DNA from: a virus
Taxonomy: Duplodnaviria > Heunggongvirae > Uroviricota > Caudoviricetes
Virus record (IMG/VR): IMGVR_UViG_3300029839_000128
DNA length: 64,000 nt
Reading direction: 5' to 3' (one strand)
The translations under genes and the position numbers were made by a program. Shown in pieces: positions 3,025 through 33,751 of this stretch. Below the pieces are notes generated by a model, which did not search any database, was not told where the DNA came from, and saw nothing but the letters and a program-made list of their open reading frames with translations. Within the stretch, counting starts at the first letter, position 1. The number at the start of each line of letters is the position of its first letter.

Positions 3025-3813
3025 TTAGTTGTTGATGGGGGGGGTAAGACAAGCGGCTTCAACTTTATCGTACTCTTCCCAAGGAATACGAACGGCGTGC
3101 TTGTGATCTTCCAGATAGGCAGTTCGACCATTAGCAATCAGCCAGTTATCAAAAAAGGTCTGCATTTCCGCAATAGCAGCATCTCCAATGTCGCTGAAAG
3201 CGTCTTCATACAAATCTTCGCAGGCAGAATCAACGATACTACGAGCGTCCAGGCTCATATGAATCTCCGAAGTACCCCATACATACTGCGGACGCTGGGT
3301 GGGATCTGTCCAGTCGTCATTATTCCAGCTATCAAAGAACTCATCCCAGTCTGTAAAGTAGCCATCGTTATATGGGAAGTAATCGCTATGACACATGGTA
3401 AATTTGGTGCCAAGAGCATTTGGCTCATACTTTGTGGCGCGGTCAAAAGCTTCCTGCAATTTCTTCTGCTCTTTTGCCCACTTGCGCTGCTGAGCCGCGC
3501 TACAGTCACATTGCAAAGTTGTTCTGGGAAGCTGTTTGCCACAGTCGGGGCAATAACGGACAATCCCGTTATAGCAGTTAGGGCAAAAAGAAATAGACTG
3601 ATGTTGATACGGAAACATACCGAATTTCTTATCAGGATCGTCAGATAAGCCATAGCGATTAGGTACAATACTTACACCGGTACCTTTGCAGACTGGACAA
3701 ATACCTTCATTGTCATGCAGATCTTTAACCAACTCTTGCTCTAACAAATGGGCAAACGCATCTTTTACACTCACTGTTTCACGAACTGGTTTAACAAAAT
3801 CAGACATAGGCAC
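3025..3813 (-). CDS. Cys-rich zinc-ribbon protein, unknown function
   Basis: Several CxxC pairs (CPVCKGTG, CPNCYNG, CPDCGKQ, CDCSAAQ). ORF track. Confidence 0.5.
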   Translation of the reverse strand: MPMSDFVKPVRETVSVKDAFAHLLEQELVKDLHDNEGICPVCKGTGVSIVPNRYGLSDDPDKKFGMFPYQHQSISFCPNCYNGIVRYCPDCGKQLPRTTLQCDCSAAQQRKWAKEQKKLQEAFDRATKYEPNALGTKFTMCHSDYFPYNDGYFTDWDEFFDSWNNDDWTDPTQRPQYVWGTSEIHMSLDARSIVDSACEDLYEDAFSDIGDAAIAEMQTFFDNWLIANGRTAYLEDHKHAVRIPWEEYDKVEAACLTPPINN

Positions 3814-3816
3814 ACC

Positions 3817-3999
3817 TCAAAACTCATTTTCCATGGAATGATATCTTTGAGGACACCCTTTGCACAACTCCTCCGCATAGGCGTCTCCATCAGGGCATTG
3901 CATACCATATCCATACTCACAGCTCAAATCCTGGGTATCTCCATACCATCTTTCTGTGATGGTGCCACCACAAGCACCAGTATAGCAAACATCGTTCAT
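3817..3999 (-). CDS. small Cys-rich protein (60 aa)
   Basis: ORF track. RBS GGAGG 7 nt upstream. Preceded by the conserved leader motif (4013-4033) and a sigma70-like promoter (4039-4066). Confidence 0.5.
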   Translation of the reverse strand: MNDVCYTGACGGTITERWYGDTQDLSCEYGYGMQCPDGDAYAEELCKGCPQRYHSMENEF

Positions 4000-21335: not shown

Positions 21336-22178
21336 TTAGAATGAACAGTCACAAGGCAAAACATCTTCTTCCTGAATAAGTTTTCTTGCTACTGCCCAAA
21401 ATTTTTGTGGCGTTGTCTTTTCTGTCGGGGGCAATGCCTTTTGCTTGAGACGGGCGAACTCCGGTTCCAGCTCAAACAGAAATGCCTGCCGTAAAATGCT
21501 GAAGCCAATCTCTTTTTCTGCTTGCTTTGCTTTTTCCCAGATCTCAGGGTATAAACAGTACACGATAAACCAGTGTTGCTTACCGGCTTTCAGACAGCCA
21601 ATGCAGTTTGCGTGATTGAAAATACTGTAAGATTTCGGACGTTTAATCCCAATCTCCTCAATTTGATAAATAGAGCGATCATTCCAGATCAGCGGATATT
21701 CTGTGCGATACCCCATCACTGCCATAACACCGATGCGACGCCTAATTCTGGTCTGCTCGCTTGCATCAAATCCGTACACCAAAGACACATCTTCTCGGAT
21801 ATGAGGAGGATCGGCAGGGTAGTGCTCAGCCAGCCATTTATGAAATGGCTTAGTCTTTAACTCTTGTGTACAAAGCGCAGAGGATTGAATACCATATTTG
21901 AATGCTTTCAACTCCATACATACATCGAACTGGTCTTTATTTTCCCATCCAGGCATATTAGCGTAGGTAATAGGAACACCTAAATAATCCGAAACCTCTT
22001 GCTTGAAACGCTTAATATCAGGATCTTCGGTGCGAGAACATAAATCATGGTTAAGTAAGATTGTGTTTTCCGCTCCGTATTTCCGAACAATTTCTACGGC
22101 AGCAATCGCTGAGGAATGCCCGCCGGAATAACAGACGATATGCTTCATACCGACCACAACCATCTCGGTTGAGGTCAA
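21336..22178 (-). CDS. PAPS-reductase/PP-loop ATP pyrophosphatase family protein
   Basis: PP-loop variant VCYSGGHSSA near the N-terminus. C-terminal Cys pairs (CIGC, CDC). Confidence 0.55.
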   Translation of the reverse strand: MTSTEMVVVGMKHIVCYSGGHSSAIAAVEIVRKYGAENTILLNHDLCSRTEDPDIKRFKQEVSDYLGVPITYANMPGWENKDQFDVCMELKAFKYGIQSSALCTQELKTKPFHKWLAEHYPADPPHIREDVSLVYGFDASEQTRIRRRIGVMAVMGYRTEYPLIWNDRSIYQIEEIGIKRPKSYSIFNHANCIGCLKAGKQHWFIVYCLYPEIWEKAKQAEKEIGFSILRQAFLFELEPEFARLKQKALPPTEKTTPQKFWAVARKLIQEEDVLPCDCSF

Positions 22179-23185: not shown

Positions 23186-23431
23186 TTATTTTTCTTTAGA
23201 GCTGCTTGAACTGTGGCTAAACAGTAGGTAACACAAGAAGTACAGCGCGTAAGCCTGCCAGTATGTAATAGCAGGGAGGCTAAACACAGCCGGCACTACC
23301 GCATTCCAAAGCAGCATGACCGGAAGTGCAGCCACCAAACCAATCACGGCCACCAGAACAGCAGCAAGGAACACCACACCAATACCATAAATCAGGGTTT
23401 TCACTACATTTCCTCCTCTCTTAATGGGCAT
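23186..23431 (-). CDS. small membrane protein (2 TM segments)
   Basis: Hydrophobic segments. Start overlaps the stop of the kinase-HD gene (operon end). Confidence 0.5.
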   Translation of the reverse strand: MPIKRGGNVVKTLIYGIGVVFLAAVLVAVIGLVAALPVMLLWNAVVPAVFSLPAITYWQAYALYFLCYLLFSHSSSSSKEK

Positions 23432-24332
23432 GAAGATCGCATTCGTTCAAGATCAGAAGACGGTTCCACTCCGCCTCGCCAATCAAATTAACGAGCTTTT
23501 TCATAGTCTTCTGGGGATTATCAGACTTGGAAACCACATAAGGGTACATATGCCAGCGGATCAGGAGCGCGACGGCCAGACGCTCTTTGGTGCTGAGATC
23601 TCCGGTATAGGCGAAGCTATCGTAAGCACCAACGCGCTCATGGTGATAGTAATGAGCAACCTCAGTGGGTTCGCCATGGGAATCATGGAAAACCTTGGTG
23701 TGCTCTTTACCAATATCATGGAGAATAACCGCACGCTTGAGAGCAATATCGGCATCGGGATAGTGGTCGAGCAGATAAGCCCAAGCCACCAAACAATGCT
23801 GACCAATGGTGAACTCGTGGTGGGGATTGTCATGTTCAATGGCGCAAAGGCGTCTGAGAGCATCGTCCAAAATCTCGTATCCGTAGTCGTTCTCGATCCA
23901 GATATCGTCCCAGCCCTCAGACATCATAGGAATGTCGAAGCTCTCATACATTCGCTTAATGACACTTTCAGGAATGGTGCGCTCTCTGGCGGCGTTGTTT
24001 TCCAAGCATTTGTAATAAGGCGCTGCCGTAAAAACACAGGCGGCATTGAGATTGGGAATGCGAAGCGCCCGTACACGGCTCAAAAACTGCTGGCGGCGGC
24101 GGAAGTTGATATTAGTGGCGTCGTAGACCACATTCTTGCCGGTGCGGAGGTCTTCAAGCACCCGGTCATGGAGCGTCTGGAAAACCAACTCCTGATTGCT
24201 CTGGTCGGAGATATTGCCCAGCAGCTCCTCGCGGATCGCGTCGCTGGAATGGATTACGGCGTCGGGCAGCTTTTGGGCATAATAGCTTTTGCCGCTTCCA
24301 GGGAGACCGACCATCATATAGAAATATTGCAT
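23421..24332 (-). CDS. P-loop polynucleotide kinase domain fused to HD phosphohydrolase domain (putative RNA 5'-kinase / 2',3'-phosphoesterase end-healing enzyme)
   Basis: N-terminus MMVGLPGSGKSYYA (Walker A, T4 Pnk-like). C-terminal HD motifs ...H...ILHDIGKEH...H. Translationally coupled to the upstream NTase. Confidence 0.65.
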   Translation of the reverse strand: MQYFYMMVGLPGSGKSYYAQKLPDAVIHSSDAIREELLGNISDQSNQELVFQTLHDRVLEDLRTGKNVVYDATNINFRRRQQFLSRVRALRIPNLNAACVFTAAPYYKCLENNAARERTIPESVIKRMYESFDIPMMSEGWDDIWIENDYGYEILDDALRRLCAIEHDNPHHEFTIGQHCLVAWAYLLDHYPDADIALKRAVILHDIGKEHTKVFHDSHGEPTEVAHYYHHERVGAYDSFAYTGDLSTKERLAVALLIRWHMYPYVVSKSDNPQKTMKKLVNLIGEAEWNRLLILNECDLHAH

Positions 24333-25144
24333 CAGTTCATACCTCCAATCTCAGAAAGAAAACAACGCTTGAGAATTTCTACCGTTGCGGTTTGAAGAAC
24401 TTCCTCCGCGTGCTTGTTGATAATGGGAGGGTAGGTATCCATATAATTCTTCTTGTCGGCAATCATGGTCTCAATGGTCTTGGACATAAGCTCCCGTGCT
24501 TGTTCCAAAGTGCAGCACCCACGTTTGACATCCATCAGGTAATCATGCTGGGCGCTGATCAGGCAATCCTCATAAGGAACGCCGGCAAGGTATCGGGTCA
24601 TAAACTCCCGCATACGCAAGGCGTGATGGAGTTGCTTGGGATCGTAGCCAAAGCGCTCGATCTTATCCATGGTGGCGGGATAGGGATGTTCCATTGCCTT
24701 TTGCTTTTCCAGAGCCATACCGACCAAACAGTTGACCCCGGCATAGTTGTTGTAGCGAGCAATATCCTCTCTGGCATCCAACACAGATTGGAAAAGATCT
24801 TCGTATTTGGGATTGAGGATCATATAGCGCGTAAACAAAATTTCGACAAAATTGACATTTTGCTTCTTGATACAATCGAACATCAAACGAATGTCTTTGA
24901 AGTCTAAGTGCTCATTATTCTCCATGATATGGGTAGTGCTAACTGGCTTACGGTTAAGTACAAAATCAGTGAAACTGGGAAGCACGATCACTTTGGTATC
25001 AATGTCGCTGCCCTCGTAATCCAGATCGTAGTTTTGAGATCCCTGCAAAAACAGCCCGACCCACTCCATACCAGATTTCATAACGGGCACCAGATGTTCT
25101 GCCATCCGTGCATAGATTTTCTTAGCTTTTTCAAAATCAGTCAT
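24332..25144 (-). CDS. pol-beta superfamily nucleotidyltransferase (possibly tRNA nucleotidyltransferase-like)
   Basis: GSQNYDLDYEGSDIDTKV equals the GS..(x)..DxD NTase signature. 270 aa with a helical C-terminal domain. In the operon with the RNA ligase and kinase-HD. Confidence 0.55.
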   Translation of the reverse strand: MTDFEKAKKIYARMAEHLVPVMKSGMEWVGLFLQGSQNYDLDYEGSDIDTKVIVLPSFTDFVLNRKPVSTTHIMENNEHLDFKDIRLMFDCIKKQNVNFVEILFTRYMILNPKYEDLFQSVLDAREDIARYNNYAGVNCLVGMALEKQKAMEHPYPATMDKIERFGYDPKQLHHALRMREFMTRYLAGVPYEDCLISAQHDYLMDVKRGCCTLEQARELMSKTIETMIADKKNYMDTYPPIINKHAEEVLQTATVEILKRCFLSEIGGMN

Positions 25145-25448
25145 CGTATGGCTCCTTTCTGATACAGTCTCGAACGAGTCGCTGATACAACAGTGGGTCG
25201 TATTGTTCCATATCCGACCAGAACATCAGATACTCGCTGTTCTTATATGTGTCTGTCACATCGCCAGAAGCGTCATAGAATCGGCCTCCAATCTCCTGAA
25301 CGAAATGGTTTTTGACTGGCTCATACATCATAGTTCCGCCAAAACGCTCTTGGAGGATAAAGGCAAACCAATAGCAACATCCACATAAAAAAGTTTCCTC
25401 AGCACCTTTGAAATGACGAATGAAATCAAGAACGATTTCTTTATCCAT
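25137..25448 (-). CDS. hypothetical protein (about 103 aa)
   Basis: Start MDKEIVLDF at 25448, overlapping the ligase stop by 8 nt (track ORF is longer). Confidence 0.4.
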   Translation of the reverse strand: MDKEIVLDFIRHFKGAEETFLCGCCYWFAFILQERFGGTMMYEPVKNHFVQEIGGRFYDASGDVTDTYKNSEYLMFWSDMEQYDPLLYQRLVRDCIRKEPYDD

Positions 25449-26940
25449 TGACTTCCTCGGAAACCTCCTGCTGCTCTTCCATATCAGGAGCGGCAGCGGA
25501 TTCTTTGATAATGCCCTCCAGCACCTTGAACGCAAAATTCTTATGCTTGTAGGCAGTAAACTTGGGACGGTTGACAATGCGAACAACCACACCCTCGCGA
25601 ACATGAGACTTTCCTACGGGATCAGGGCCGTCATAGAACTTCTCAGCCTGTTCCTTAACATAAGCACCAGCGTCGATATCGATAATGCTGCCCACATCAT
25701 CGGCGAGCGTAGAATAATGAGGAATATATTCCTTGCAGAAAACAGGAACACACTTGACACCCATCTGCTCACAACGGTAACGCATGAAGTCGGGGGTATA
25801 TTCCACCACATCGCCGTCCTCGTTAGTCATAGTCATACGATAGACATACATATCAGACTTAGGAGCATCCTCATACATCGCCTTGGTATTGACGCTGGTA
25901 GCAGAGAGATCCCCAATATCTGAGGTGGGGGTTGCAACCGGCTGATCACTGATGAACTTACGGCCATTGGGTTCACATCCATAGCTGAAAACAGTGGTTT
26001 TCCCGTACTGTTTGGTAAACTCCTTATCTCCAACCTTTGAATTGCTACCAGGAGACATAATTGGCGTTCCGTCATCAGTAAAGCCTACCACTTCATAGTA
26101 GACAGTTTCGCCTTTGTGGAGCTTTCCCTCAAAGGCTTTCGCGTGCTTCTCACGAAACGCATTGCTGCCATAAAATCCGCCGTCATAGCCATCCAAAACC
26201 ACACGACGAGTGCCAGTCACATAACCCCAATCGTAGATAGGAGTACGTTTGATGCGACGAGCAAGCCATCCAGGAATCTTCTCACTCTCATACAATGCCT
26301 TTGTCAAACGATTGCGGTAAGAGTATCCTTGAAGGATAGGAAGGAAGCCGGTACGCTGAGAAGTTCCGTGCATTTTCAGAGTAATCTCAATGAGATCACC
26401 AGGGCGAAATGCGCTCAGATTATAGGCCAGCTGCTCAGTATCGGAATGCTCGGTAAACAGAGGGGAAATAGGATCGTGCTTTTTACGAACGCGATTTCCG
26501 CCAATACCTCCACTATGAGATCGGCTTGCCTTGGGAATGTATTTCTCACAAATGGTAACACCATTCAAAATGGAGATGGTATCTCCCTCTTTGAGCTTGG
26601 AGATGTCTGTAAAATCTTTCAGACTGGACAGGGGAAGAAACAAACCGTCACTCTTCTCTCCTCTCAGCTTCAGCGCCTTGATATTGCGTTTTTCGGGATC
26701 AAGATATCCGCCGGCAGGATTCCCGTTCTGATCTTTACGACGCAGCAGATCATTCTTCTGAGCAAACTCAATACCCAGCTTACCGTCTGTAGGGAAGTAA
26801 ATGCCCAGCTGGTCAGGTTCCGTACCAAGATCCACAATAACGGTGTTGCCAAAACATTCGCCGCAGAGCAGACGATCTGCATTGGTATGCTTTCGCAGAT
26901 TGCGAATCCTGGTCACATACGCGCAGTACAAATTGATCAC
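25441..26940 (-). CDS. ATP-dependent RNA ligase, Rnl2-like nucleotidyltransferase domain with N-terminal extension
   Basis: Motif I EITLKMHGTSQR (KxHGT, as in T4 Rnl2 KIHGTN). Motif IV-like YYEVVGF. Motif V-like KHKNFAFK. 499 aa. Preceded by the leader motif and AAGGAG RBS. Confidence 0.7.
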   Translation of the reverse strand: MINLYCAYVTRIRNLRKHTNADRLLCGECFGNTVIVDLGTEPDQLGIYFPTDGKLGIEFAQKNDLLRRKDQNGNPAGGYLDPEKRNIKALKLRGEKSDGLFLPLSSLKDFTDISKLKEGDTISILNGVTICEKYIPKASRSHSGGIGGNRVRKKHDPISPLFTEHSDTEQLAYNLSAFRPGDLIEITLKMHGTSQRTGFLPILQGYSYRNRLTKALYESEKIPGWLARRIKRTPIYDWGYVTGTRRVVLDGYDGGFYGSNAFREKHAKAFEGKLHKGETVYYEVVGFTDDGTPIMSPGSNSKVGDKEFTKQYGKTTVFSYGCEPNGRKFISDQPVATPTSDIGDLSATSVNTKAMYEDAPKSDMYVYRMTMTNEDGDVVEYTPDFMRYRCEQMGVKCVPVFCKEYIPHYSTLADDVGSIIDIDAGAYVKEQAEKFYDGPDPVGKSHVREGVVVRIVNRPKFTAYKHKNFAFKVLEGIIKESAAAPDMEEQQEVSEEVNG

Positions 26941-26989: not shown

Positions 26990-28144
26990 TTAAAGAGAGG
27001 TGGTATTCATGGATTTGAGGCTTTTTGCAGCCGCAGCGATTGCTTTGGCAGCAGTTCTCATTTCATCAGCCGTAGTGTCTGTACCCATGGAAATACGAAT
27101 AGTAGACGCAGCCAACTCTTCGGGAATACCAGCTCCCATAAGAACATGAGAAGGGTTAGGACTTCCAGCGCTACAGGCAGATCCGGCGGAAACACAAATA
27201 TCATCCTGATCCAATCGAAGCACCATTGCCTCACTATTTACACCAGGTACGGTCAAGCTGATAATGTTTAGCGCGGTATTATTCCCACCATTGATGGAAT
27301 ACTCATCGGGTTCCATATGAATAGCAAGACTATCAAAGAAGACCTTGCGAAGCGACTGCCATTTATCTTTCCATACGTTCAAATTTTTAACAACAAGCTC
27401 AGCAGCAACTCCCAGAGCGATGATACCAGGAACATTTTCAGTACCTCCACGAATACCGCACTCCTGACCTCCGCCGTAAATAAAAGGTTTTTTAGGGATA
27501 TCACTGCGGATATATAGAATACCAGTCCCCATAGGAGCGCCAAACTTATGGCCGGAAAGGGAAAGCATATCTATATGACAAGCTTTTACATCCATAGGCA
27601 CATGACCTGCGGCCTGAATTGCATCCACATGGAAAGGAACATTATAGGTTTTACAAAGAGTTCCAATATCTTTGATGGGATTGATAGTTCCCAACTCATT
27701 ATTGACCCACATAACGGACACAGCACCAACAATGCCATGGTATTGATCCAGTTTTGCTTTCAAGTCTTCCAAGTCTACTGCGCCAGCAATGTCTACTTTT
27801 GCGAAGATTGGACGGGCATAAGCAGCAGAGATAACGCATTTTTCTACCGGTTCTAAAATGGAGTGGTGCTCTACTTTAGTGGTAATAATAATATGACGGT
27901 TAAGATTTTTGATCCAAGCATTGTTCGATTCGGTGCCTCCGCTGGTAAAATAGATCTCAGACGGATCGGCATTGATCATCCGGGCAACCTGCCGGCGTGC
28001 CTTTTCGATTGCTTGATGTGCCCGCACACCCTGAGAATGAATGCTGCTTGGATTGCCTACATGATCAGGCTGAAGCCATTGAAGCATCTGTTTAAGCACT
28101 TCGGGGTGTACGGGAGTGGTTGCTGCGTGATCAAGGTAAATCAT
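26990..28144 (-). CDS. cysteine desulfurase (class V aminotransferase, IscS/NifS-like)
   Basis: MIYLDHAATTP start. SLSGHKFGAPMGTGILYIRS PLP-lysine motif. GSACSAG C-terminal catalytic Cys loop. 384 aa. Confidence 0.85.
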   Translation of the reverse strand: MIYLDHAATTPVHPEVLKQMLQWLQPDHVGNPSSIHSQGVRAHQAIEKARRQVARMINADPSEIYFTSGGTESNNAWIKNLNRHIIITTKVEHHSILEPVEKCVISAAYARPIFAKVDIAGAVDLEDLKAKLDQYHGIVGAVSVMWVNNELGTINPIKDIGTLCKTYNVPFHVDAIQAAGHVPMDVKACHIDMLSLSGHKFGAPMGTGILYIRSDIPKKPFIYGGGQECGIRGGTENVPGIIALGVAAELVVKNLNVWKDKWQSLRKVFFDSLAIHMEPDEYSINGGNNTALNIISLTVPGVNSEAMVLRLDQDDICVSAGSACSAGSPNPSHVLMGAGIPEELAASTIRISMGTDTTADEMRTAAKAIAAAAKSLKSMNTTSL

Positions 28145-28239: not shown

Positions 28240-29775
28240 TTATGCTAAAGAGCGCATAGCATCCTCTACGGGCTGATAGCGCTCAGTATTGAGGGTTTCC
28301 AGCAGGCACTCATAAGGATCGAGCTTCCCACTCATTACCATTTTGGCAATGTTGGGAGAGAAACCGCTAACCAAAGCCACACCCAGATCGTTCTCCTTAA
28401 CAGGAATGGTGCCGGTGCGCGAATTGACATTCCAGAAGACCATCCGGGGCAACTGGTAGCCAGCATCCTGATATCGCTGAGCGATAGTGTCAAAGAGAGT
28501 GACGCTGGGGCGATTACGGGTATAGCTGTACCGAGATCTGACACCGCAAGTAGCACACCCATCGAACTCCATATCTGAGATGATGAGGATGTTCTGAGGA
28601 AGATCTTCCTGACACATATTGTTCTGGATGGCGGTATCCAGAATGAGATTGAAAACCGCCTCAATATTGGTATTGGCGACCTCATTATGGCGGCGGGCGA
28701 TACTCAACTTCTCGCGCAAGCTTTTACCCTTGCTGAGATCCACCAGCCTGGGAGTCTCGGAGAAGGTGATGTAGTTATCCTTAAACTGACCGGAGGAACG
28801 CTCAGCGAAATAAATTGCCAGAGCATTGGCAACTTCCAGAGCGGACACATCAGTGCCACCGACGCGGACGCTCATGCTTCCACTGCCGTCCGCCACAACA
28901 ATGGTATTGCCACATTCCTGAACAGTATCAGGCAAAGACTGCCACAGCGCCTCCAAAGTGGCGTCAGTACCAGACTTGCGACCATACTGATGTACGATGT
29001 CGTGAGGGAAAAGGGTTCCAGCGTTAATCTTTGCCTCGCCACGCTCGACGCTGGCAAGGAACTCACGACGACGATCCTCGTCGTGACGGAGGAACGCACT
29101 ATTGTAACGCAGATTTGCACGAGAAGGAACGCGCTGATAATCAATCTTATCCCAATCACGGGAAGACATCTGGCGCTCTACAACCTTCAGATACTCGGAC
29201 AGATTAGACAGGGTATGCTGATACTCTCGTTCGGTCATGTTCAGTGCCTTGCACAGCATGGATGCGTAACGACGTGACAGCTGAGAAGAGGATTTACGGC
29301 GAGGCATCCACTTGGCAAGCAGAGAAATACTCTTGTTCTCTTTGGCATCGGCCACATCCTGATAAAGCTGTTGAGCAACCAGAGTAAACACCTCGTCAGC
29401 AACGGCAGTATCCAACAGACACCAGAGGTCGTCCCAGCGGCCATATTCAGGCACCAGCGACACAACCGCCTGAATATATTCGGGATGCTCCTTTGCCATA
29501 GCCTCAATTACGGAGCGGAACAGACGACGCTCGCCCAGACCACCACGAATATCACGGGCAAAGAACAGCCACTTCATAGCGACAATCTTATCCTCAAAGA
29601 AAGCCGTAATGAAACGATCGGCGATATCTTGTTCAGAAGCAGAACGCAGAGAAGCGACCGCGAAGTTGAGATCCAGCAGCTTCCTTCCGGTAGTACGATA
29701 GCCCACAGCACCATTTTCGGTAATAGCGGGCGCACCATCAAGAGTAGTCTTGACAGCAGACATAAAATTGCTCAT
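28240..29775 (-). CDS. DUF2828-like protein with vWA/MIDAS motif (possibly Ro60/TROVE-like RNA-binding module)
   Basis: 511 aa. Helical N-terminal half followed by VVADGSGSM (DxSxS MIDAS). Immediately downstream of the tRNA-like cluster. Confidence 0.45.
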   Translation of the reverse strand: MSNFMSAVKTTLDGAPAITENGAVGYRTTGRKLLDLNFAVASLRSASEQDIADRFITAFFEDKIVAMKWLFFARDIRGGLGERRLFRSVIEAMAKEHPEYIQAVVSLVPEYGRWDDLWCLLDTAVADEVFTLVAQQLYQDVADAKENKSISLLAKWMPRRKSSSQLSRRYASMLCKALNMTEREYQHTLSNLSEYLKVVERQMSSRDWDKIDYQRVPSRANLRYNSAFLRHDEDRRREFLASVERGEAKINAGTLFPHDIVHQYGRKSGTDATLEALWQSLPDTVQECGNTIVVADGSGSMSVRVGGTDVSALEVANALAIYFAERSSGQFKDNYITFSETPRLVDLSKGKSLREKLSIARRHNEVANTNIEAVFNLILDTAIQNNMCQEDLPQNILIISDMEFDGCATCGVRSRYSYTRNRPSVTLFDTIAQRYQDAGYQLPRMVFWNVNSRTGTIPVKENDLGVALVSGFSPNIAKMVMSGKLDPYECLLETLNTERYQPVEDAMRSLA

Positions 29776-29852
29776 TTTCTCTTACCTCCTAAAAAATTGA
29801 GATACCCGGAACACGATTTTCATTTGTTTGCTGTTTGTGTTCAGAGAAGTGA

Positions 29853-29965
29853 AACGGCAGGCAGGATTTGAACCTGCGAATGGCGGCTTGGCATTTTTAC
29901 CTTGCTGTTAGCGAAACTTGTTCGCATTTTTATGGCCGCTGTCTTAACCACTTGACTACTGCCGC
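29853..29965 (-). tRNA. tRNA-like gene t1 (113 nt) with ~40-nt insertion replacing the anticodon loop
   Basis: Minus-strand read: acceptor GCGGCAG/CTGCCGT, D arm GTC-AAGTGGTTAA-GAC, 5-bp stem GCGGC/GCCGC enclosing a 47-nt loop (hairpin GCGAA-CAAGT-TTCGC then TAACAGCAA), variable loop CATTC, T arm GCAGG-TTCAAAT-CCTGC. No CCA encoded. Confidence 0.55.
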
Positions 29966-30049
29966 GTATATGTCTGTCTTTCCAGACCGTCACCATTTCT
30001 GCCCATTTATGAGGTTGGTTTAGAATGGTTTAAGCAGCTCTTCCTCCGG

Positions 30050-30162
30050 TGCCGGGAGCAGGACTCGAACCTGCGACCACGGGATTAACAGTCCTAATTC
30101 ATTGCTGATGGCGTACACCCGGTACGCACAATTACGCGCTCTATCCGCTGAGCTATCCCGGC
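30050..30162 (-). tRNA. tRNA-Asn(GUU)-like gene t2 (113 nt) with ~40-nt insertion between D arm and anticodon arm
   Basis: Acceptor GCCGGGA/TCCCGGC, D arm GCTC-AGCGGATA-GAGC. Insertion GCGTAATTGT[GCGTAC-CGGGT-GTACGC]CATCAGCAATGAAT. Anticodon arm TAGGA-CTGTTAA-TCCCG (E. coli tRNA-Asn-type loop CUGUUAA). T arm GCAGG-TTCGAGT-CCTGC. Discriminator A. Confidence 0.6.
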
Positions 30163-30372
30163 ATATATAATGAGCTATGAGCGCTTCCCTCATAGAAATG
30201 ATGCCCTCCGCAGTTGCGCACCCGCTTCGGTAAGGCGCACGGTACTCTAACTACCCCGTTACGTTATTCACACGCTACACCATTTTGCATCAACCTTGAA
30301 TGCCGTTGTTTACACCGAGTAGCTATCTCGATGCGCGTAGTTAGCTAAACCACGACGCCTGTTCTGTTTGTT

Positions 30373-30449
30373 CGCTCCAGCCTGGGACTCGAACCCCGGC
30401 CCTCCGGCCATACTTCGGCCAGCGTGCTTTCCGCCTACACCACTGGAAC
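30373..30449 (-). tRNA. tRNA-like element t3 (77 nt), non-canonical (A33, mismatched T stem), possible pseudo-tRNA
   Basis: Acceptor GTTCCAG/CTGGAGC pairs 7 bp. T loop TTCGAGT present but T stem has a G-A mismatch. Anticodon-like loop GAAGTAT lacks U33. Confidence 0.35.
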
Positions 30450-30616
30450 TAAGGCACGACAAACTTAGTCAATGGGCTTTATCTTTGCCCACTCATTATT
30501 AACTTTTGGATGTCGGACTCACCAGAATTGCACTGGAGCGGCTGCAACCGTGACCCTTATCCGACAAAGATCATATATACTTTTCAGAAAGGAGGTCAAC
30601 GCCAAATGTACGCTGA

Positions 30617-30728
30617 TGCAGAAGGTGGGACTCGAACCCACGACACATCATTCCCTTTTTTAGATTGCTGTTGGTGTCACATCAATAACACACTTTTATG
30701 ATTACTCTACCAGCTGAGCTACTTCTGC
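30617..30728 (-). tRNA. tRNA-like gene t4 (112 nt) with ~39-nt insertion replacing the anticodon loop
   Basis: Acceptor GCAGAAG/CTTCTGC, canonical D arm GCTC-AGCTGGTA-GAGT. Stem ATCAT/ATGAT encloses a 46-nt loop (hairpin GTGT-N12-ACAC then CAACAGCAA). Variable loop GTGTC. T arm GTGGG-TTCGAGT-CCCAC. Discriminator A. Confidence 0.6.
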
Positions 30729-30811: not shown

Positions 30812-30923
30812 GAGGGAGCTACGGAATCGAACCGTAAACAAAAGATTTCAAGTCTTTTTTGTTTAAGTTTGCTGTAAGTGTCCGCCGCCAATTACACTGA
30901 AAATGTTGCCACCAGACGCTCCC
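30812..30923 (-). tRNA. tRNA-like gene t5 (112 nt) with insertion; anticodon arm with UGA anticodon (Ser-type loop CUUGAAA) but short variable loop
   Basis: Acceptor GGGAGCG/AGCTCCC (one mismatch). Hairpin GTGT-AATTGGCGGCGG-ACAC then TTACAGCAAACTT. Anticodon arm AAAGA-CTTGAAA-TCTTT. T arm TACGG-TTCGATT-CCGTA. D region atypical. Confidence 0.45.
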
Positions 30924-31018
30924 ATATAGATGCCGCACTTACACGGCAGTAGTGGTCTTTCCCACCGTCATTTGAAAGGGGGTCAATACGGATTTACTAT
31001 CGCCGGCCACCACACCAG

Positions 31019-31112
<94 letters not shown>

Positions 31113-31255: not shown

Positions 31256-31537
31256 TTATTGCTCTTCTGTGATCAGAAGCTTAGAAAAGTTGGAAATAAT
31301 CGCAGAGTTATGAGAACGCTGCTTATTCATGTTCTCACGGGTTTTTGCCAGACTTTCGGCATATTCGTCGATCTCCCGCACAGCATCATCAAGTTGCTGA
31401 TTGATCAACTCCAAACTGGAGATAGTACGAGTCACCAAATCCACAGCCTCATTTGCCTGCTGCGTCAGCAGTGCAACCTCACTGGTTTTTTCCTGAAGGA
31501 TATCAGTAGAAACGCTCTGTTTCTTTACAAAAGCCAT
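31256..31537 (-). CDS. small coiled-coil protein (93 aa)
   Basis: ORF track. Heptad-like composition. Confidence 0.45.
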   Translation of the reverse strand: MAFVKKQSVSTDILQEKTSEVALLTQQANEAVDLVTRTISSLELINQQLDDAVREIDEYAESLAKTRENMNKQRSHNSAIISNFSKLLITEEQ

Positions 31538-31546
31538 ATACCCTCC

Positions 31547-32446
31547 TTAATTCATACCGTCAATACTAACAATAGCATTTGAACCGGACACGGTGGGCAG
31601 CTCACCATCCCACTGCTCATACTTAATCTTCTCAATCAGGGTGTCGGTCAAAGAGGCAGCAATTACGCGATTAGCTTCGGCCTCGGCCTCAGCAGCAATA
31701 CGAATTACATCAGCCTCGGCATTTGCCTCAATAATGGCCTTTTCTGCGGCGATCTGAGCGACTTCCTTATCCTTCTCGGCGTTGATCTTGGCAGTCTCCG
31801 CCTCAATATTCGCCAACTCAAGTTCTTGCTGAGCGGTAACTTTCTTTTGGATAGCTGCGGCAGTTTCAGCGTCTACAGAAATATCGGTGAAATTTACGGT
31901 GTCAATAATAATTCCGTACTTATCAAACTTTTCACGCAAGTAGGTATCCAGCTCGGCATTGATCTGGGTGCGCTTATCTCCAAAAATATCCGTTACGGGA
32001 TAATTTGCGGAAACTTCCTGCGTCCAGGCCACAATCTTGGGCTTGATAAAGGTATCCTTGATGCTCTCTCCAGACTTGCCCTTAAACATTGTGAATGTCT
32101 GGGCTACACGATCTTCATCGAAACGATAGGAAAACTCCAGGTTGACGCGAACTGTTTTACCATCAGAAGTGGGGATGCTAAAACTCTCGTCCTTGGGAGA
32201 GTCGCCTTTATCCTCAGCGGTCAGGTAGGACTGTTCAATTCCAATGGAATAGGTTGTGACCTTCTTGGTGGGAGCGACGATGTGCCAGCCCTGAGTCAAC
32301 ACCTCACCGTCCACGCCACCGTTCATATTGTATACGACACCTACATAACCTGCAGGAATACGCTCAGTACAGGTCAGTGTCAAAATTAGGCCACCAAAGA
32401 TGATGATTGCCAGGACGATGGCTCCAATAAAGCCTTTCTTTCTCAA
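31547..32446 (-). CDS. SPFH/band-7 (prohibitin/HflKC-like) membrane protein
   Basis: N-terminal TM helix then a band-7 core (VVYNMNGGVDGEVLTQGWHIV..) and a long Ala/Glu-rich coiled-coil tail. 299 aa. Confidence 0.65.
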   Translation of the reverse strand: MRKKGFIGAIVLAIIIFGGLILTLTCTERIPAGYVGVVYNMNGGVDGEVLTQGWHIVAPTKKVTTYSIGIEQSYLTAEDKGDSPKDESFSIPTSDGKTVRVNLEFSYRFDEDRVAQTFTMFKGKSGESIKDTFIKPKIVAWTQEVSANYPVTDIFGDKRTQINAELDTYLREKFDKYGIIIDTVNFTDISVDAETAAAIQKKVTAQQELELANIEAETAKINAEKDKEVAQIAAEKAIIEANAEADVIRIAAEAEAEANRVIAASLTDTLIEKIKYEQWDGELPTVSGSNAIVSIDGMN

Positions 32447-32723: not shown

Positions 32724-33641
32724 TTAGGTAAAGAGCTGCTTATAAAGCTTGTAGTCACGCACTCGCGCAACACGTTTGGCTTTGTTATTCAGATCCTCGC
32801 AAAATACCTTGGAAGCAAATTCCGGGTCATCCAAATCAAAAGAAGAGCTTTCGCACTCCAATCGGTATGCGCGGTAGAAAATACCAGAGATATATACCAC
32901 ATCATACCGAAGAGAATAAACGCGACCAGCGATGGCGTTCAGACGATAAAGCATTCCGCGCATATTGTCCAAGTCAATCTGAGGATTCCGCTCGGTACGA
33001 ATCAAATACTCGGAATACATATATTTGTGAAAGATCAAGCCTCTGGCTTGCTGATAATATCCTTCGGCATCCCGCAAGCGTTCAAATAGCCGGCAAATTT
33101 CGTAGGGCATTTCGATCTTCTCATCGCCCTTCATCACACCATCCTCAAGAACTGCATCTTTTCGGAAGTTGATAATTTCATCCTCGGTGAATCCATACCA
33201 GGCAAGGTAAAGTATTGCGGAAGGAAGATCGTAAAGTGTATCGTCATAGCTATCTGCGGATCTTACAGAATCGTTAATAGCCGCCTGCAATGTTGCAAGA
33301 TTTTTGTGGTAATGAATGTGCTTACTGTTCTTGATACTCAGGTCATCAACGGTGACAGATGCTAAAATTTGTTCCTGTTCCGCAGGAAGAATCCCGTGAG
33401 CAATCAAATATCGGATATAGAACATTACTACTGCCTTGTGGTTGGGGAGAGTTCTGGTGTGCCGGATACGCATGGAATTAAACATGGCAACAAACTCTTC
33501 TTTGGTAAATCCGCTATCCAGAGATTTTCCAATCTCCTGCTCATAAGCTTCGACCTTTTTCCAGACCTGATCGAATACTTTCAGATTTGCGAAAGAGGAG
33601 TATCCGTTTTCGGAGTCCTCGAAAAACTTCTTGCGGATCAT
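32724..33641 (-). CDS. hypothetical protein (305 aa)
   Basis: Start MIRKKFF at 33641 with GGATAGGAGAGGGG RBS (track ORF extends to 33716). Confidence 0.5.
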   Translation of the reverse strand: MIRKKFFEDSENGYSSFANLKVFDQVWKKVEAYEQEIGKSLDSGFTKEEFVAMFNSMRIRHTRTLPNHKAVVMFYIRYLIAHGILPAEQEQILASVTVDDLSIKNSKHIHYHKNLATLQAAINDSVRSADSYDDTLYDLPSAILYLAWYGFTEDEIINFRKDAVLEDGVMKGDEKIEMPYEICRLFERLRDAEGYYQQARGLIFHKYMYSEYLIRTERNPQIDLDNMRGMLYRLNAIAGRVYSLRYDVVYISGIFYRAYRLECESSSFDLDDPEFASKVFCEDLNNKAKRVARVRDYKLYKQLFT

Positions 33642-33751
33642 ATTCCCCTCTCCTATCCGTCGAATATTTTTCTGTGTTACTATAATAGCACTTGCGCTGA
33701 ACTTTGTCAATAGCAAATCAGAAAATTATTCAAAGAACTTATCGAGGAGTT

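What the first reader, a model, noticed from the sequence alone, without database searches (positions are those of the whole stretch)
28240..29775. DUF2828-like protein with vWA MIDAS motif next to tRNA-like RNAs and an RNA ligase: a possible Ro60/Rsr-Y RNA-ligase analogue
The 511-aa protein has a helical N-terminal half followed by VVADGSGSM (DxSxS MIDAS), the domain order of Ro60/TROVE proteins. Bacterial rsr loci classically contain Y RNAs with tRNA-like domains and the RtcB RNA ligase. Here a Ro-like protein, tRNA-like RNAs with extra structured modules and an RNA ligase are contiguous on one strand. The insertion-bearing tRNA-like RNAs could be the ligands.
Basis: inference. Interest (0 to 1): 0.7.

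Follow-up and report, generated by a model that had tools for sequence, protein, structure and literature searches.

The report
Phage Ro-like protein with cognate RNAs
A phage gene of unknown function encodes a protein with the fold of the RNA-binding Ro60 autoantigen, and in very different phages it sits beside a previously undescribed family of small tRNA-derived RNAs marked by the invariant sequence ACAGCAA, which are probably its RNA partners.

Summary
Window 28240-29775 (-) encodes a 511-aa DUF2828+DUF7788 protein with an invariant MIDAS motif. It follows a 1.5-kb array of tRNA and tRNA-like genes and precedes a cysteine desulfurase, a DraRnl-like RNA ligase, a nucleotidyltransferase and a kinase-HD protein, all on one strand.

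The array RNAs share a module: a helix, 2 nt, then ACAGCAA. It occurs as standalone elements (7-bp stem, ACAGCAA, anticodon-arm-like hairpin) and as 39-40-nt insertions in the anticodon arm of tRNA-like genes. A covariance model finds it only on the gene strand next to DUF2828 genes:
- 198 of 198 hits in 80 viral loci.
- 4 of 5 unrelated cultured phages not used to build the model.
- No hits in the T4 or T5 tRNA regions, or beside a canonical TROVE Ro60, which has a YrlA-like RNA instead.

Rfam 15 has no such family, and I found no paper describing it. Protein-RNA binding and a role in RNA repair are inferred, not shown.

The parts
28240..29775 (-). Ro60-like protein (Pfam DUF2828 + DUF7788/vWA), 511 aa
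28873..28899 (-). VVADGSGSM: the DxSxS part of the MIDAS motif (residues 293-301)
   Evidence: Translation; D296, S298, S300, T369 and D401 invariant in A2; aligned with the MIDAS of Xenopus and human Ro60 and of Bxz1 Ro60
29785..29790 (-). Ribosome-binding site AGGAGG of the Ro-like gene
   Evidence: Sequence
29808..29843 (-). S2: minimal ACAGCAA element (GAACAC aa ACAGCAA 13 nt GUGUUC) in the 5' leader, ending 18 nt upstream of the RBS
   Evidence: Scanner; CM R1 19.2 bits, E 0.014; the same position is occupied in related loci
29853..29965 (-). tF: tRNA-like RNA (Gly-GCC-like) with a 40-nt module (hairpin, UA, ACAGCAA) on the 5' side of the anticodon loop
   Evidence: Rfam tRNA 50.4 bits with a 46-nt insert; ARAGORN; RNAalifold on 12 orthologues gives 9 of 26 pairs with compensatory changes, including the module hairpin
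29972..29987 (-). Leader hairpin GUCUG-GAAAGA-CAGAC (a second, clade-specific motif)
   Evidence: Sequence; enrichment 94 versus 6 by strand in the 80 related loci
30049..30162 (-). tE: tRNA-like RNA (Asn-GUU-like anticodon arm) with a 40-nt module (hairpin, CA, UCAGCAA) between positions 28 and 29 of the anticodon stem
   Evidence: ARAGORN with introns allowed; fold; my reading of the stem from orthologues
30373..30449 (-). tD: GC-rich tRNA-like sequence without the ACAGCAA module
   Evidence: ARAGORN tRNA-Thr(AGU); below the Rfam tRNA threshold; conserved in 5 loci
30617..30728 (-). tC: tRNA-like RNA with a 39-40-nt module (hairpin, CA, ACAGCAA) in the anticodon loop
   Evidence: Rfam tRNA 49.4 bits with a 46-nt insert; ARAGORN; CM R1 E 0.003 on the module
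30813..30923 (-). tB: tRNA-like RNA with acceptor stem, T arm and a UGA anticodon arm, in which a hairpin + UU + ACAGCAA takes the place of the D arm
   Evidence: Rfam tRNA 21.5 bits over part of it; fold; CM R1 E 5e-4
30952..30965 (-). Leader hairpin GUGG-GAAAGA-CCAC (second motif)
   Evidence: Sequence
31020..31112 (-). tA: canonical class II tRNA-Ser(GCU) with an encoded CCA
   Evidence: ARAGORN; Rfam tRNA 46.4 bits
31190..31247 (-). S1: standalone ACAGCAA element (GUGACGC cc ACAGCAA, an anticodon-arm-like hairpin with loop UUUGGGU, GCGUCAC)
   Evidence: CM R1 48.4 bits, E 1e-10, but it is a seed member of the model; scanner
31256..31537 (-). 93-aa predicted coiled-coil protein, conserved with the cluster
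   Evidence: ORF; present in 42 of 80 related loci
31547..32446 (-). SPFH/Band-7 protein
   Evidence: Pfam Band_7 E 2e-26; present in 40 of 80 related loci
26990..28144 (-). NifS/IscS-type cysteine desulfurase
   Evidence: Pfam Aminotran_5 E 2e-72; NCBIfam NifS E 7e-113; present in 45 of 80 loci
25441..26940 (-). ATP-dependent RNA ligase, DraRnl-like
   Evidence: PHROG 968 E 2.5e-63; TIGR02306 E 1.3e-9, below cut-off; weak Pfam RNA_ligase
25137..25604 (-). YunG-like small protein
   Evidence: Pfam PF24591 E 1.7e-7
24332..25144 (-). Nucleotidyltransferase (possibly RlaP-like)
   Evidence: PHROG 388 E 6e-13; no Pfam match
23421..24332 (-). P-loop polynucleotide-kinase-like domain fused to an HD phosphohydrolase domain
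   Evidence: Pfam AAA_33 and HD; NCBIfam bacterial Pnkp kinase E 2e-12 and the HD region of CCA enzyme E 7e-6
21336..22178 (-). PP-loop ATPase (PAPS-reductase-like; weak MnmA similarity)
   Evidence: PHROG 424 E 4e-32; TIGR00420 E 0.003

Best explanation
The gene encodes a phage member of a second branch of the Ro60 superfamily: a helical ring-type domain followed by a vWA domain with a complete MIDAS motif. I propose that it binds small tRNA-derived RNAs encoded beside it, recognising a shared module made of the end of a helix, two nucleotides and the single-stranded heptamer ACAGCAA. The module comes in three forms: (i) armless tRNA-like elements (a 7-bp acceptor-like stem, ACAGCAA where the D arm would be, an anticodon-arm-like hairpin); (ii) a minimal hairpin in the gene's own 5' leader; (iii) a 39-40-nt insertion in the anticodon arm of otherwise complete tRNA-like RNAs. 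The third form resembles bacterial YrlA, where the Ro60-binding helix replaces the anticodon stem of a tRNA-like body. In this window the ribonucleoprotein is part of an operon with a Band-7 protein, an ATP-dependent RNA ligase, a kinase-HD end-healing enzyme and a nucleotidyltransferase. Its most likely job is therefore as scaffold or cofactor in repair, quality control or protection of tRNAs during infection, with the tRNA-like bodies and anticodon-arm mimics as the handles that recruit tRNA-directed enzymes or nucleases. Shown: the fold, the RNA structures, and the two-way genomic linkage of gene and RNA. Inferred: direct binding, the role of ACAGCAA as the recognition element, autoregulation through the leader copy, and the link to RNA repair.
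Against: No binding data exist, and no co-fold could be computed. Pfam TROVE does not match even at E <= 10, so the N-terminal similarity rests on a predicted structure of moderate confidence (pLDDT about 50-60 in residues 200-290 and below 50 in residues 1-28). The outer stem of the standalone element was a selection criterion, so its near-perfect pairing is partly circular. The element also tracks phage tRNA arrays in many genomes, so a partner other than DUF2828 cannot be excluded. One DUF2828 phage (Vibrio D481) had no element within 6 kb either side of the gene, and 11 of 71 genome loci lack the motif within 400 nt. The RNA repair genes are absent next to DUF2828 in Felixounavirus, Tsamsavirus and Fletchervirus, so repair may be only one context. 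About 40% of standalone elements have a canonical anticodon-loop signature; the others do not.
Confidence: 0.6

Rival explanations
1. The ACAGCAA elements are purely cis-acting leader or trailer elements of the DUF2828 mRNA, controlling translation, stability or processing, possibly as autoregulatory operators. They are not trans-acting Y-like RNAs.
For: The most frequent position is 67-130 nt upstream of the start codon or directly after the stop. The window's S2 ends 18 nt before the RBS. ACAGCAA lies within 400 nt upstream in 55 of 71 genome loci.
Against: There are usually several copies per locus, up to 2 kb away and interleaved with tRNAs. The module is also embedded in complete tRNA-like RNAs with conserved D and T arms. 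A role as an autoregulatory operator would still require binding by the protein, so this rival overlaps with the main explanation.
Confidence: 0.15
2. The elements are processing or recognition signals of phage tRNA clusters, read by another factor such as a host or phage RNase, a tRNA-modifying enzyme or an anticodon nuclease for which they act as decoys. DUF2828 is linked only because it is a neighbour of tRNA arrays.
For: In Felixounavirus, Tsamsavirus, Pecentumvirus and the Klebsiella phage the gene abuts the tRNA array and the elements lie between tRNAs. Many elements contain anticodon-arm mimics. A cysteine desulfurase and a PP-loop ATPase are co-conserved.
Against: The tRNA arrays of T4 and T5, whose searched regions have no gene annotated as Ro-like, have no element. 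In phages where no tRNA array, or at most one tRNA, is annotated near the gene (Mycobacterium Acquire49, Campylobacter F365, Sinorhizobium phiN3) the elements still flank DUF2828. The distance distribution is anchored on the gene's start and stop.
Confidence: 0.15
3. The 39-40-nt modules in tC, tE and tF are introns or mobile insertions that are removed by cleavage and by the operon's ligase and kinase-HD enzymes, producing functional tRNAs. The Ro-like protein would be a splicing chaperone or unrelated.
For: Removing 40 nt from tF gives a perfect CUGCCAA anticodon loop, and from tE a perfect 5-bp anticodon stem (and my reading). The modules have nearly the same length and short direct repeats at their ends. 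An RNA ligase and an end-healing enzyme are adjacent.
Against: The insertion site differs between genes (28/29, 32/33, inside the loop). There is no bulge-helix-bulge motif and no group I core, and the Rfam scan of the array (E <= 1) matched no intron or ribozyme family. U33 is not conserved in tF orthologues (G or A in L002, L005, L016). The same module exists as standalone elements that cannot yield a tRNA. No splicing endonuclease was recognised among the proteins I scanned.
Confidence: 0.07
4. The protein is a generic vWA/MIDAS adaptor, for example a cochaperone or virion-assembly factor. The Ro60 similarity is an artefact of a helical domain placed next to a vWA domain in a predicted model.
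For: vWA proteins act as MoxR cochaperones in phage assembly (PMC7824862). Pfam TROVE does not match. The model has low-confidence segments.
Against: Full-length alignments to eight Ro60 entries outrank every vWA-only structure by a wide margin in two independent methods. The vWA domain is specifically closest to the Ro60 vWA. The gene lies in RNA-related, non-structural neighbourhoods. The conserved RNA linkage is unexplained by this view.
Confidence: 0.03

Closest known systems
Bacterial Ro60 (Rsr) with YrlA/YrlB Y RNAs, often in rsr-yrl-rtcBA operons
   Same: The domain order is the same (helical ring, then a vWA domain with MIDAS). The cognate small RNAs are encoded next to the gene on the same strand. 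The RNAs have a tRNA-like body joined to a separate protein-binding module placed where the anticodon arm would be. The system is linked with an RNA ligase and end-healing enzymes.
   Different: There is no Pfam TROVE match. No YrlA or Y RNA is present. The conserved RNA signature is ACAGCAA next to a helix, not the GNCGAA-type motif. The 5' and 3' ends are in the acceptor stem, not in the Ro-binding stem. The ligase is ATP-dependent and DraRnl-like, not RtcB. The gene is carried by phages.
Thermus phage phiLo Ro60 with Yrl1 and Yrl2 (PDB 9KOP, 9L5Y; PMC12135203), and mycobacteriophage Bxz1-type TROVE Ro60 with YrlA-like RNA
   Different: They are canonical TROVE proteins (Bxz1: TROVE E 9e-50, vWA_Ro60 E 4e-54) with Y RNA-like partners (YrlA-like hit, E 3e-4) and no ACAGCAA element. 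DUF2828 proteins are a separate sequence family with a different RNA.
Band-7-associated tRNA-like RNA (b7a-tRNA) in RNA repair operons, predicted by Burroughs and Aravind 2016
   Same: A Band-7/SPFH gene, a tRNA-like RNA and an RNA ligase lie in one operon. According to the secondary source, b7a-tRNA sometimes occurs next to Rsr (bioRxiv 10.1101/312249).
   Different: I could not read the primary paper, so I cannot say whether b7a-tRNA corresponds to any RNA here. It is described as strongly resembling an authentic tRNA. The ACAGCAA elements follow DUF2828, not Band-7: they are present in phages with no Band-7 gene annotated or detected in the fetched flanks.
Phage T4 Pnkp + Rnl1 tRNA repair
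   Same: It is a phage-encoded kinase/phosphatase and RNA ligase set, acting on tRNAs cut by host anticodon nucleases.
   Different: T4 has no Ro-like protein, and no ACAGCAA element was found in its tRNA region. The enzyme families differ: HD instead of a HAD/calcineurin-type phosphatase, and a DraRnl-like ligase instead of Rnl1.
Armless mitochondrial tRNAs (lacking D and/or T arms)
   Same: The standalone elements consist of an acceptor-like 7-bp stem and an anticodon-arm-like hairpin joined by short replacement loops.
   Different: There is no evidence of aminoacylation or decoding. The D-replacement segment is an invariant heptamer, which points to specific recognition. Only about 40% have a canonical anticodon loop.

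Membership tests
   DUF2828 130.6 bits (cut-off 29) and DUF7788 155 bits (cut-off 27.1)
Ro60 / TROVE superfamily | N-terminal alpha-helical (HEAT-like) ring domain followed by a C-terminal vWA domain, as in solved Ro60 structures | tested here: met
Ro60 / TROVE superfamily | Complete MIDAS motif (DxSxS...T...D) in the vWA domain | tested here: met
   D296, S298, S300, T369 and D401 are invariant in A2 and align with the Ro60 MIDAS
Ro60 / TROVE superfamily | Sequence match to Pfam TROVE (PF05731) | tested here: not met
   No TROVE hit even at E <= 10. The positive control, Bxz1 gp220, gives E 9e-50.
Ro60 / TROVE superfamily | vWA domain of the Ro60 subtype | tested here: inconclusive
   PF25045 vWA_Ro60 scores only E 0.063. 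hhalign to the Bxz1 Ro60 vWA gives probability 74.7%, E 2.6e-5, with a shared VSGF motif. The PDB profile search ranks Ro60 first at E 0.017.
Ro60-Y RNA ribonucleoprotein | A known Y RNA (Rfam Y_RNA or YrlA) encoded near the gene | tested here: not met
   No such hit in the window at gathering score or at E <= 1 in the array. YrlA-like RNA is detected beside Bxz1 Ro60.
Ro60-Y RNA ribonucleoprotein | A conserved structured small RNA encoded adjacent to the gene on the same strand | tested here: met
   The ACAGCAA elements. They form a different RNA family from Y RNAs.
Ro60-Y RNA ribonucleoprotein | Physical binding of the RNA by the protein | not testable with these tools
   Requires EMSA, RIP-seq or a structure
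Modular RNA repair operon (syntax of Burroughs and Aravind 2016, known to me through secondary sources) | An RNA ligase is present | tested here: met
   PHROG 968 E 2.5e-63; DraRnl-type TIGR02306 E 1.3e-9, partial
Modular RNA repair operon | End-modifying kinase and phosphoesterase | tested here: met
   AAA_33/Pnkp-like kinase and HD domain in one protein. Activities were not tested.
Modular RNA repair operon | Ligase-associated nucleotidyltransferase (RlaP, PF10127) | tested here: inconclusive
   PHROG 388 'nucleotidyltransferase' E 6e-13, but no Pfam match
Modular RNA repair operon | Scaffold protein (Ro/TROVE or SPFH/Band-7) with a tRNA-like RNA | tested here: met
   Band_7 E 2e-26, the Ro-like protein and the tRNA-like RNAs
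Canonical decoding tRNA (for tC, tE, tF) | Cloverleaf with a 7-nt anticodon loop containing U33 | tested here: not met
   Acceptor, D and T arms are present (Rfam 49-50 bits for tC and tF), but a 39-40-nt module interrupts the anticodon arm. U33 is not conserved in tF orthologues.
tRNA introns (group I, or archaeal/eukaryal bulge-helix-bulge type) | A group I core, or a BHB motif at both junctions with a canonical or consistent position | tested here: not met
   No Rfam intron family matched. The insertion positions differ, and by inspection no BHB pairing is possible between the A/U-rich junctions.

The most novel reading that the evidence does not exclude
DUF2828 proteins and ACAGCAA RNAs form a previously unrecognised, very widespread phage ribonucleoprotein: a second Ro/Y-RNA-like system that evolved its own tRNA-derived RNA partners. 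The protein family comprises about 7,100 clusters at 50% identity and occurs in 711 cultured phage records, including Felixounavirus, Pecentumvirus, Fletchervirus and cluster L mycobacteriophages. The invariant ACAGCAA next to a helix would be the protein's address tag. Phages graft it onto tRNA bodies and anticodon-arm mimics so that the particle can engage enzymes that act on tRNAs: repair ligases, modification enzymes, or host anticodon nucleases that it decoys or blocks.
Probability: 0.45. Interest if true: 0.85.

Novelty: new variant of a known kind. Interest (0 to 1): 0.72.

Why it matters
Ro60 and its Y RNAs are a long-studied but functionally elusive pair, in autoimmunity, RNA quality control and bacterial stress responses. 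Only one phage Ro60-RNA complex has been characterised, and it is a canonical TROVE protein.

This work gives DUF2828 proteins, one of the commonest phage families of unknown function, a structural identity. It also gives them a concrete, conserved candidate RNA ligand with a 7-nt invariant core. That ligand can be tested directly in tractable phage-host pairs: Felix O1 in Salmonella, LeBron in M. smegmatis, and A511 or P100 in Listeria.

The work also explains part of the unassigned spacer sequence in phage tRNA arrays, and it explains 'tRNA genes with odd insertions' that tRNA finders miss or miscall. If the particle works in tRNA repair or against anticodon nucleases, it adds a new component to the phage-host conflict over tRNAs.

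The covariance model (seed alignment A3) could be developed into an Rfam family and used to annotate thousands of phage genomes.

Tried and rejected
- **Direct sequence route to Ro60.** phmmer and a shallow profile against PDB sequences found nothing. Only a diverse profile reached Ro60, at sub-threshold E-values.
- **Known RNA families.** Rfam at gathering score and at E <= 1 gave only tRNA hits and chance-level matches, with no Y RNA, YrlA, GOLLD, ROOL, ribozyme or intron family.
- **Splicing reading of the insertions.** ARAGORN with introns allowed places the 'introns' at three different positions and assigns inconsistent identities. I rejected canonical splicing for this reason, and because U33 is not conserved and standalone copies exist.
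- **DNA-level readings (promoter, operator, terminator, MITE).** I rejected these because the stems covary while ACAGCAA stays fixed, the strand bias is absolute, and no U-tract follows.
- **ACAGCAA pairing with a complementary site in the array.** UUGCUGU is not enriched on the gene strand (63 copies of the reverse-complement motif against about 82 expected).
- **An alternative downstream partner for the tC module helix,** suggested by the CM. I judged it coincidental because the partner is the conserved variable-loop/T-stem sequence.
- **Literature.** Searches for DUF2828, Ro-like + phage + tRNA, b7a-tRNA and TROVE + bacteriophage + Y RNA found no description of the motif. A search for the bare heptamer returned only primers and was useless.
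- **Papers not held.** The key paper of Burroughs and Aravind (2016) and two Wolin-lab reviews are not in the library, so prior mention there cannot be excluded.
- **CM sensitivity.** The model misses a Lachnospiraceae-prophage variant (stem, ACAGCAA, T arm, no anticodon arm). A plain motif count was used for those loci instead.
Full report
**1. Observation**

The ORF at 28240-29775 (- strand) is real. It is 511 aa with an ATG start, preceded by AGGAGG at 29790-29785. Pfam assigns DUF2828 (aa 129-289, E 9e-38) and DUF7788 (aa 290-484, E 2e-45), with a weak generic vWA match. PHROG 850, labelled 'RNA-binding protein', matches end to end (E 2.5e-148). VVADGSGSM is residues 293-301. In 50 homologues of 40-58% identity, D296, S298, S300, T369 and D401 are invariant, which makes a complete MIDAS motif.

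The family is very large. There are 7,135 clusters at 50% identity with E <= 0.001, and 711 cultured phage records hold a homologue. Some of those records are already annotated 'Ro-like RNA binding protein' or 'RNA-binding protein'.

**2. Neighbourhood**

On the - strand, reading 5' to 3', the order is:
- an MrpR-like protein;
- a Band-7/SPFH protein (31547-32446);
- a 93-aa coiled-coil protein;
- a 1.48-kb non-coding array (31255-29776);
- the Ro-like gene;
- a NifS/IscS cysteine desulfurase;
- an RNA ligase (PHROG 968; the N-terminal part matches the DraRnl-type model TIGR02306);
- a YunG-like protein;
- a nucleotidyltransferase (PHROG 388);
- a P-loop kinase fused to an HD domain (Pnkp-like kinase, CCA-enzyme-like HD);
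- further on, a PP-loop ATPase.

The window is 99% identical, at the level of these proteins, to an IMG/VR viral contig of 123 kb (L001). The gene order is conserved in many related viral contigs. Of 80 loci, 45 have the desulfurase, 40 Band-7, 28 the ligase and 25 the kinase-HD. The closest genomic relatives are in gut Clostridia assemblies.

**3. Fold**

An AlphaFold2 model built from 38 homologues (mean pLDDT 77, pTM 0.73) is helical up to about residue 280 and then alpha/beta.
- Foldseek against the PDB gives eight hits with E <= 1.4e-5. All are Ro60/TROVE proteins aligned over more than 500 columns: Thermus phage phiLo, Xenopus, human and Deinococcus.
- By sequence the link is weak but consistent. 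A profile of diverse homologues ranks four Ro60/TROVE sequences first in the PDB, aligned on the MIDAS motif (E 0.017-0.17).
- hhalign against the canonical Ro60 of mycobacteriophage Bxz1 aligns the whole vWA domain, including MIDAS and a shared C-terminal VSGF motif (probability 75%, E 2.6e-5).
- Pfam TROVE does not match even at E <= 10, and vWA_Ro60 only at E 0.063.

I therefore call the protein Ro60-like in architecture and probably homologous, but not a member of the TROVE sequence family.

**4. The RNAs in the window**

The array contains eight elements:
- S1 (31247-31190), a standalone element.
- tA (31112-31020), a canonical tRNA-Ser(GCU).
- tB (30923-30813), with acceptor stem, T arm and an anticodon arm, but with the D arm replaced.
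- tC (30728-30617).
- tD (30449-30373), an odd GC-rich tRNA-like sequence.
- tE (30162-30049).
- tF (29965-29853).
- S2 (29843-29808), in the leader of the Ro-like gene.

Six of these share the heptamer ACAGCAA (UCAGCAA in tE), always 2 nt after the 3' end of a helix strand. These six copies lie within 1.4 kb on one strand; the whole 64-kb window has 31 matches on both strands.

In S1 and S2 the helix is closed by a downstream partner, for example GUGACGC cc ACAGCAA ... GCGUCAC. In tC, tE and tF the helix is a local hairpin, and the whole module is 39-40 nt: an A/U-rich stretch, the hairpin, NN, ACAGCAA, and another A/U-rich stretch. It is inserted in the anticodon arm at different places: between positions 28 and 29 in tE, on the 5' side of the loop in tF, and within the loop in tC.

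**5. The element is a conserved structured RNA**

In 1.35 Mb of related and distant loci, [A/U]CAGCAA occurs 757 times on the gene strand and 235 times on the other. For strict ACAGCAA, the 2.7 kb upstream of the gene holds 126 copies with a closing stem of at least 7 bp and 125 with a local hairpin of at least 5 bp. The rest of the loci on the gene strand holds 0 and 6. The opposite strand, over whole loci, holds 1 and 6.

In an alignment of 38 diverse standalone elements, the outer 7-bp stem has double changes at all seven pairs. This stem was a selection criterion, so its near-perfect pairing is partly circular. The inner 5-bp hairpin was not selected for. It is 73% paired, with double changes at all five pairs, against 33-53% of all cells paired in slid controls. 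On 89 distinct CM hits the inner helix is 81% paired.

The inner hairpin has a 7-nt loop. In roughly 40% of elements that loop has the anticodon-loop signature Y-U-NNN-R-A; examples are CUUGAAA, UUUGGGU, CUUUUAA and CUGUUAA. The standalone element therefore looks like an armless tRNA: an acceptor-like 7-bp stem, two nucleotides, ACAGCAA where the D arm would be, an anticodon arm, and sometimes a T arm.

For the tF type, RNAalifold on 12 orthologues recovers the acceptor, D, anticodon-like and T stems and the module hairpin. Nine of 26 pairs have compensatory changes, including five U-A to C-G exchanges in the module hairpin.

**6. Linkage to the gene, tested in both directions with controls**

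(a) A covariance model (R1) finds only four hits with E < 0.02 in the 64-kb window (filters off). All four lie in the array on the gene strand.

(b) In the 80 viral loci, all 198 hits with E <= 0.01 are on the gene strand. All but one lie within about 2.1 kb upstream of the start.

(c) The element lies beside DUF2828 genes of only 33-39% identity in Mycobacterium phage Acquire49, Escherichia phage VpaE1, Bacillus phage Tsamsa and Listeria phage LP-048.

(d) In five further phages not used for the model, four have hits directly flanking the gene on its strand:
- Campylobacter F365 (E 7e-9);
- Staphylococcus PG-2021_5 (three hits, best E 1e-8);
- Klebsiella KP13-16 (E 1.7e-6);
- Sinorhizobium phiN3 (E 0.005 and 0.002).

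Vibrio D481 has none.

(e) In genome loci found protein-first, ACAGCAA lies on the gene strand within 400 nt upstream in 55 of 71. It lies within 400 nt of either end of the gene in 60 of 71. Its reverse complement occurs within 400 nt upstream in 0 of 71, and chance would give about 2.4% per 400 nt.

(f) Starting from the RNA, one exact stem variant (AAGACAC NN ACAGCAA N25-50 GTGTCTT) occurs in at least 120 viral stretches.
- 77 of them hold a DUF2828 homologue of 33-66% identity in the DNA available.
- 80 of 81 motif-gene pairs are on the same strand.
- Distances peak 67-130 nt before the start codon or just after the stop.
- Of 34 loci with at least 2.5 kb on both sides, 26 have the gene.

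(g) Negative controls. The tRNA regions of T5 (49 kb) and T4 (35 kb) have no hit better than E 0.1. The canonical TROVE Ro60 of Bxz1 (TROVE E 9e-50) has a YrlA-like hit just upstream (E 3e-4) and no ACAGCAA element (best E 1.5).

There are thus two phage Ro-type families, each with its own RNA class.

**7. Mechanism**

*Shown:* the fold, the RNA structures, and the linkage between gene and RNA.

*Inferred:*
- The protein binds the helix-NN-ACAGCAA module.
- The tRNA-like bodies and anticodon-arm mimics are the functional handles.
- The leader copy (S2, ending 18 nt before the RBS) allows autoregulation.
- In this operon the particle acts with the Band-7 protein, the ligase, the kinase-HD enzyme and the nucleotidyltransferase in tRNA repair or protection.

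The parallel with YrlA is close, since there a tRNA-like body carries the Ro60-binding helix in place of the anticodon stem. A phage Ro60 that binds RNAs encoded just upstream of its gene has been shown experimentally (PMC12135203). Ro/Y RNA and Band-7/tRNA-like RNA have been proposed as cofactors of RNA repair operons (Burroughs and Aravind 2016, read only through bioRxiv 10.1101/312249 and PMC7824862). Overexpression of the LeBron homologue gp53 is toxic to M. smegmatis (PMC13148394), which fits an activity on host RNA but is not specific evidence.

Because many phages have the gene and the elements without repair enzymes nearby, repair may be one of several contexts.

**8. Rivals**

The rivals are set out in the rival-explanations section of this report:
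- a purely cis-regulatory role;
- recognition by another tRNA-directed factor;
- splicing of the 39-40-nt modules;
- a generic vWA adaptor.

The splicing idea is attractive, because removing 40 nt restores a perfect anticodon loop in tF and a perfect stem in tE. Four observations argue against it: the insertion sites vary, there is no known intron architecture, U33 is lost in orthologues, and standalone copies exist.

**9. Novelty**

The protein-level idea is already in database annotations. The RNA element is not in Rfam 15, and I found no paper on it, although I could not read the most relevant primary paper.

I rate the whole as a new variant of a known kind: a Ro/Y-RNA-type system with a distinct protein family and a distinct, tRNA-derived RNA family.

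Confidence by step:
- fold, about 0.9;
- gene-RNA linkage, about 0.95;
- direct binding, about 0.6;
- a role in tRNA repair or protection, about 0.5.

Noticed in passing
window 30965-30952 and 29987-29972 (- strand); arrays of L001-L080: A second small motif: a 4-5-bp hairpin with the fixed loop GAAAGA and variable, covarying stems, lying about 6-28 nt upstream of tB- and tF-type RNAs. It occurs 94 times on the gene strand and 6 on the other in the 80 related loci, concentrated in the 2 kb upstream of the gene. It is absent from the distant phages checked.
   Followed up: partly
window 26990-28144 and 21336-22178 (- strand): A NifS/IscS-type cysteine desulfurase (in 45 of 80 related loci) and a PP-loop ATPase (PAPS-reductase-like, weak MnmA match; in 17 of 80) travel with the cluster. 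Together they suggest thiolation of tRNA or of the tRNA-like RNAs. A DndA/DndC-like DNA modification pair is the alternative.
   Followed up: no
window 28240-29775, residues 19-23: T19-E20-N21-G22-A23 is invariant or nearly so across the family, yet lies in a segment the model leaves unstructured (pLDDT < 50). The Glu could be a ligand for the MIDAS metal, within the protein or in a partner.
   Followed up: no
window 30373-30449 (- strand): tD is called tRNA-Thr(AGU) by ARAGORN but is GC-rich (67%), has an atypical D arm and falls below the Rfam tRNA threshold. It is conserved in only 5 related loci and lacks the ACAGCAA module.
   Followed up: partly
window 30163-30372 and 30450-30616 (- strand): Two long spacers (210 and 167 nt) in the array have no assigned element. 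The first is conserved only in L001 and L002. The second contains a sigma-70-like promoter match (30599-30570) and a 22-nt stretch identical in at least ten other loci.
   Followed up: no
window 29966-30048 (- strand): The 83-nt spacer between tE and tF is conserved in 17 loci, in some of them (L059, L069) downstream of the Ro-like gene rather than upstream, as if it were a movable unit.
   Followed up: no
L243-L261 and similar (Lachnospiraceae genome loci), about 70-130 nt upstream of the gene: A variant element is common here: AAAGACUUUC ACAGCAA, a short linker, a T arm (GCAGGUUCGAAUCCUGC), then CCCGGUAAGGCUUU. It has a T arm but no anticodon arm, and the covariance model misses it.
   Followed up: partly
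L263 (Prevotella assembly) 3619-3848: The only two strong CM hits on the opposite strand lie just upstream of a partial DUF2828 match (residues 129-508). This suggests a local inversion or a disrupted gene.
   Followed up: no
L272 (contig binned as Methanobrevibacter) and L262/L264 (Akkermansia): DUF2828 genes with an ACAGCAA element occur on short contigs binned to an archaeon and to Akkermansia. This could be a mis-binned phage or a genuinely wider host range.
   Followed up: no
L205 (phage T5) and L206 (phage T4) tRNA regions: Both records annotate several 'stable RNAs with unknown functions', some called tRNA-like, between their tRNA genes (T5 RNA1, RNA2, RNA3, RNAX; T4 rnaC, rnaD). They do not match the ACAGCAA model.
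   Followed up: partly
window 32724-33716 (- strand): A 330-aa protein with a weak match to the MrpR N-terminal core-binding domain (E 1e-4) heads the conserved cluster (45 of 80 loci). It is preceded by a strong promoter-like site (33710-33682), which may drive the whole operon.
   Followed up: no
A5 columns 75-76 with 96-97 (tF type): RNAalifold pairs the GC of ACAGCAA with the GC of the conserved GCCAA at the 3' side of the expanded anticodon loop. Both are invariant, so the pairing can be neither supported nor refuted by covariation.
   Followed up: no
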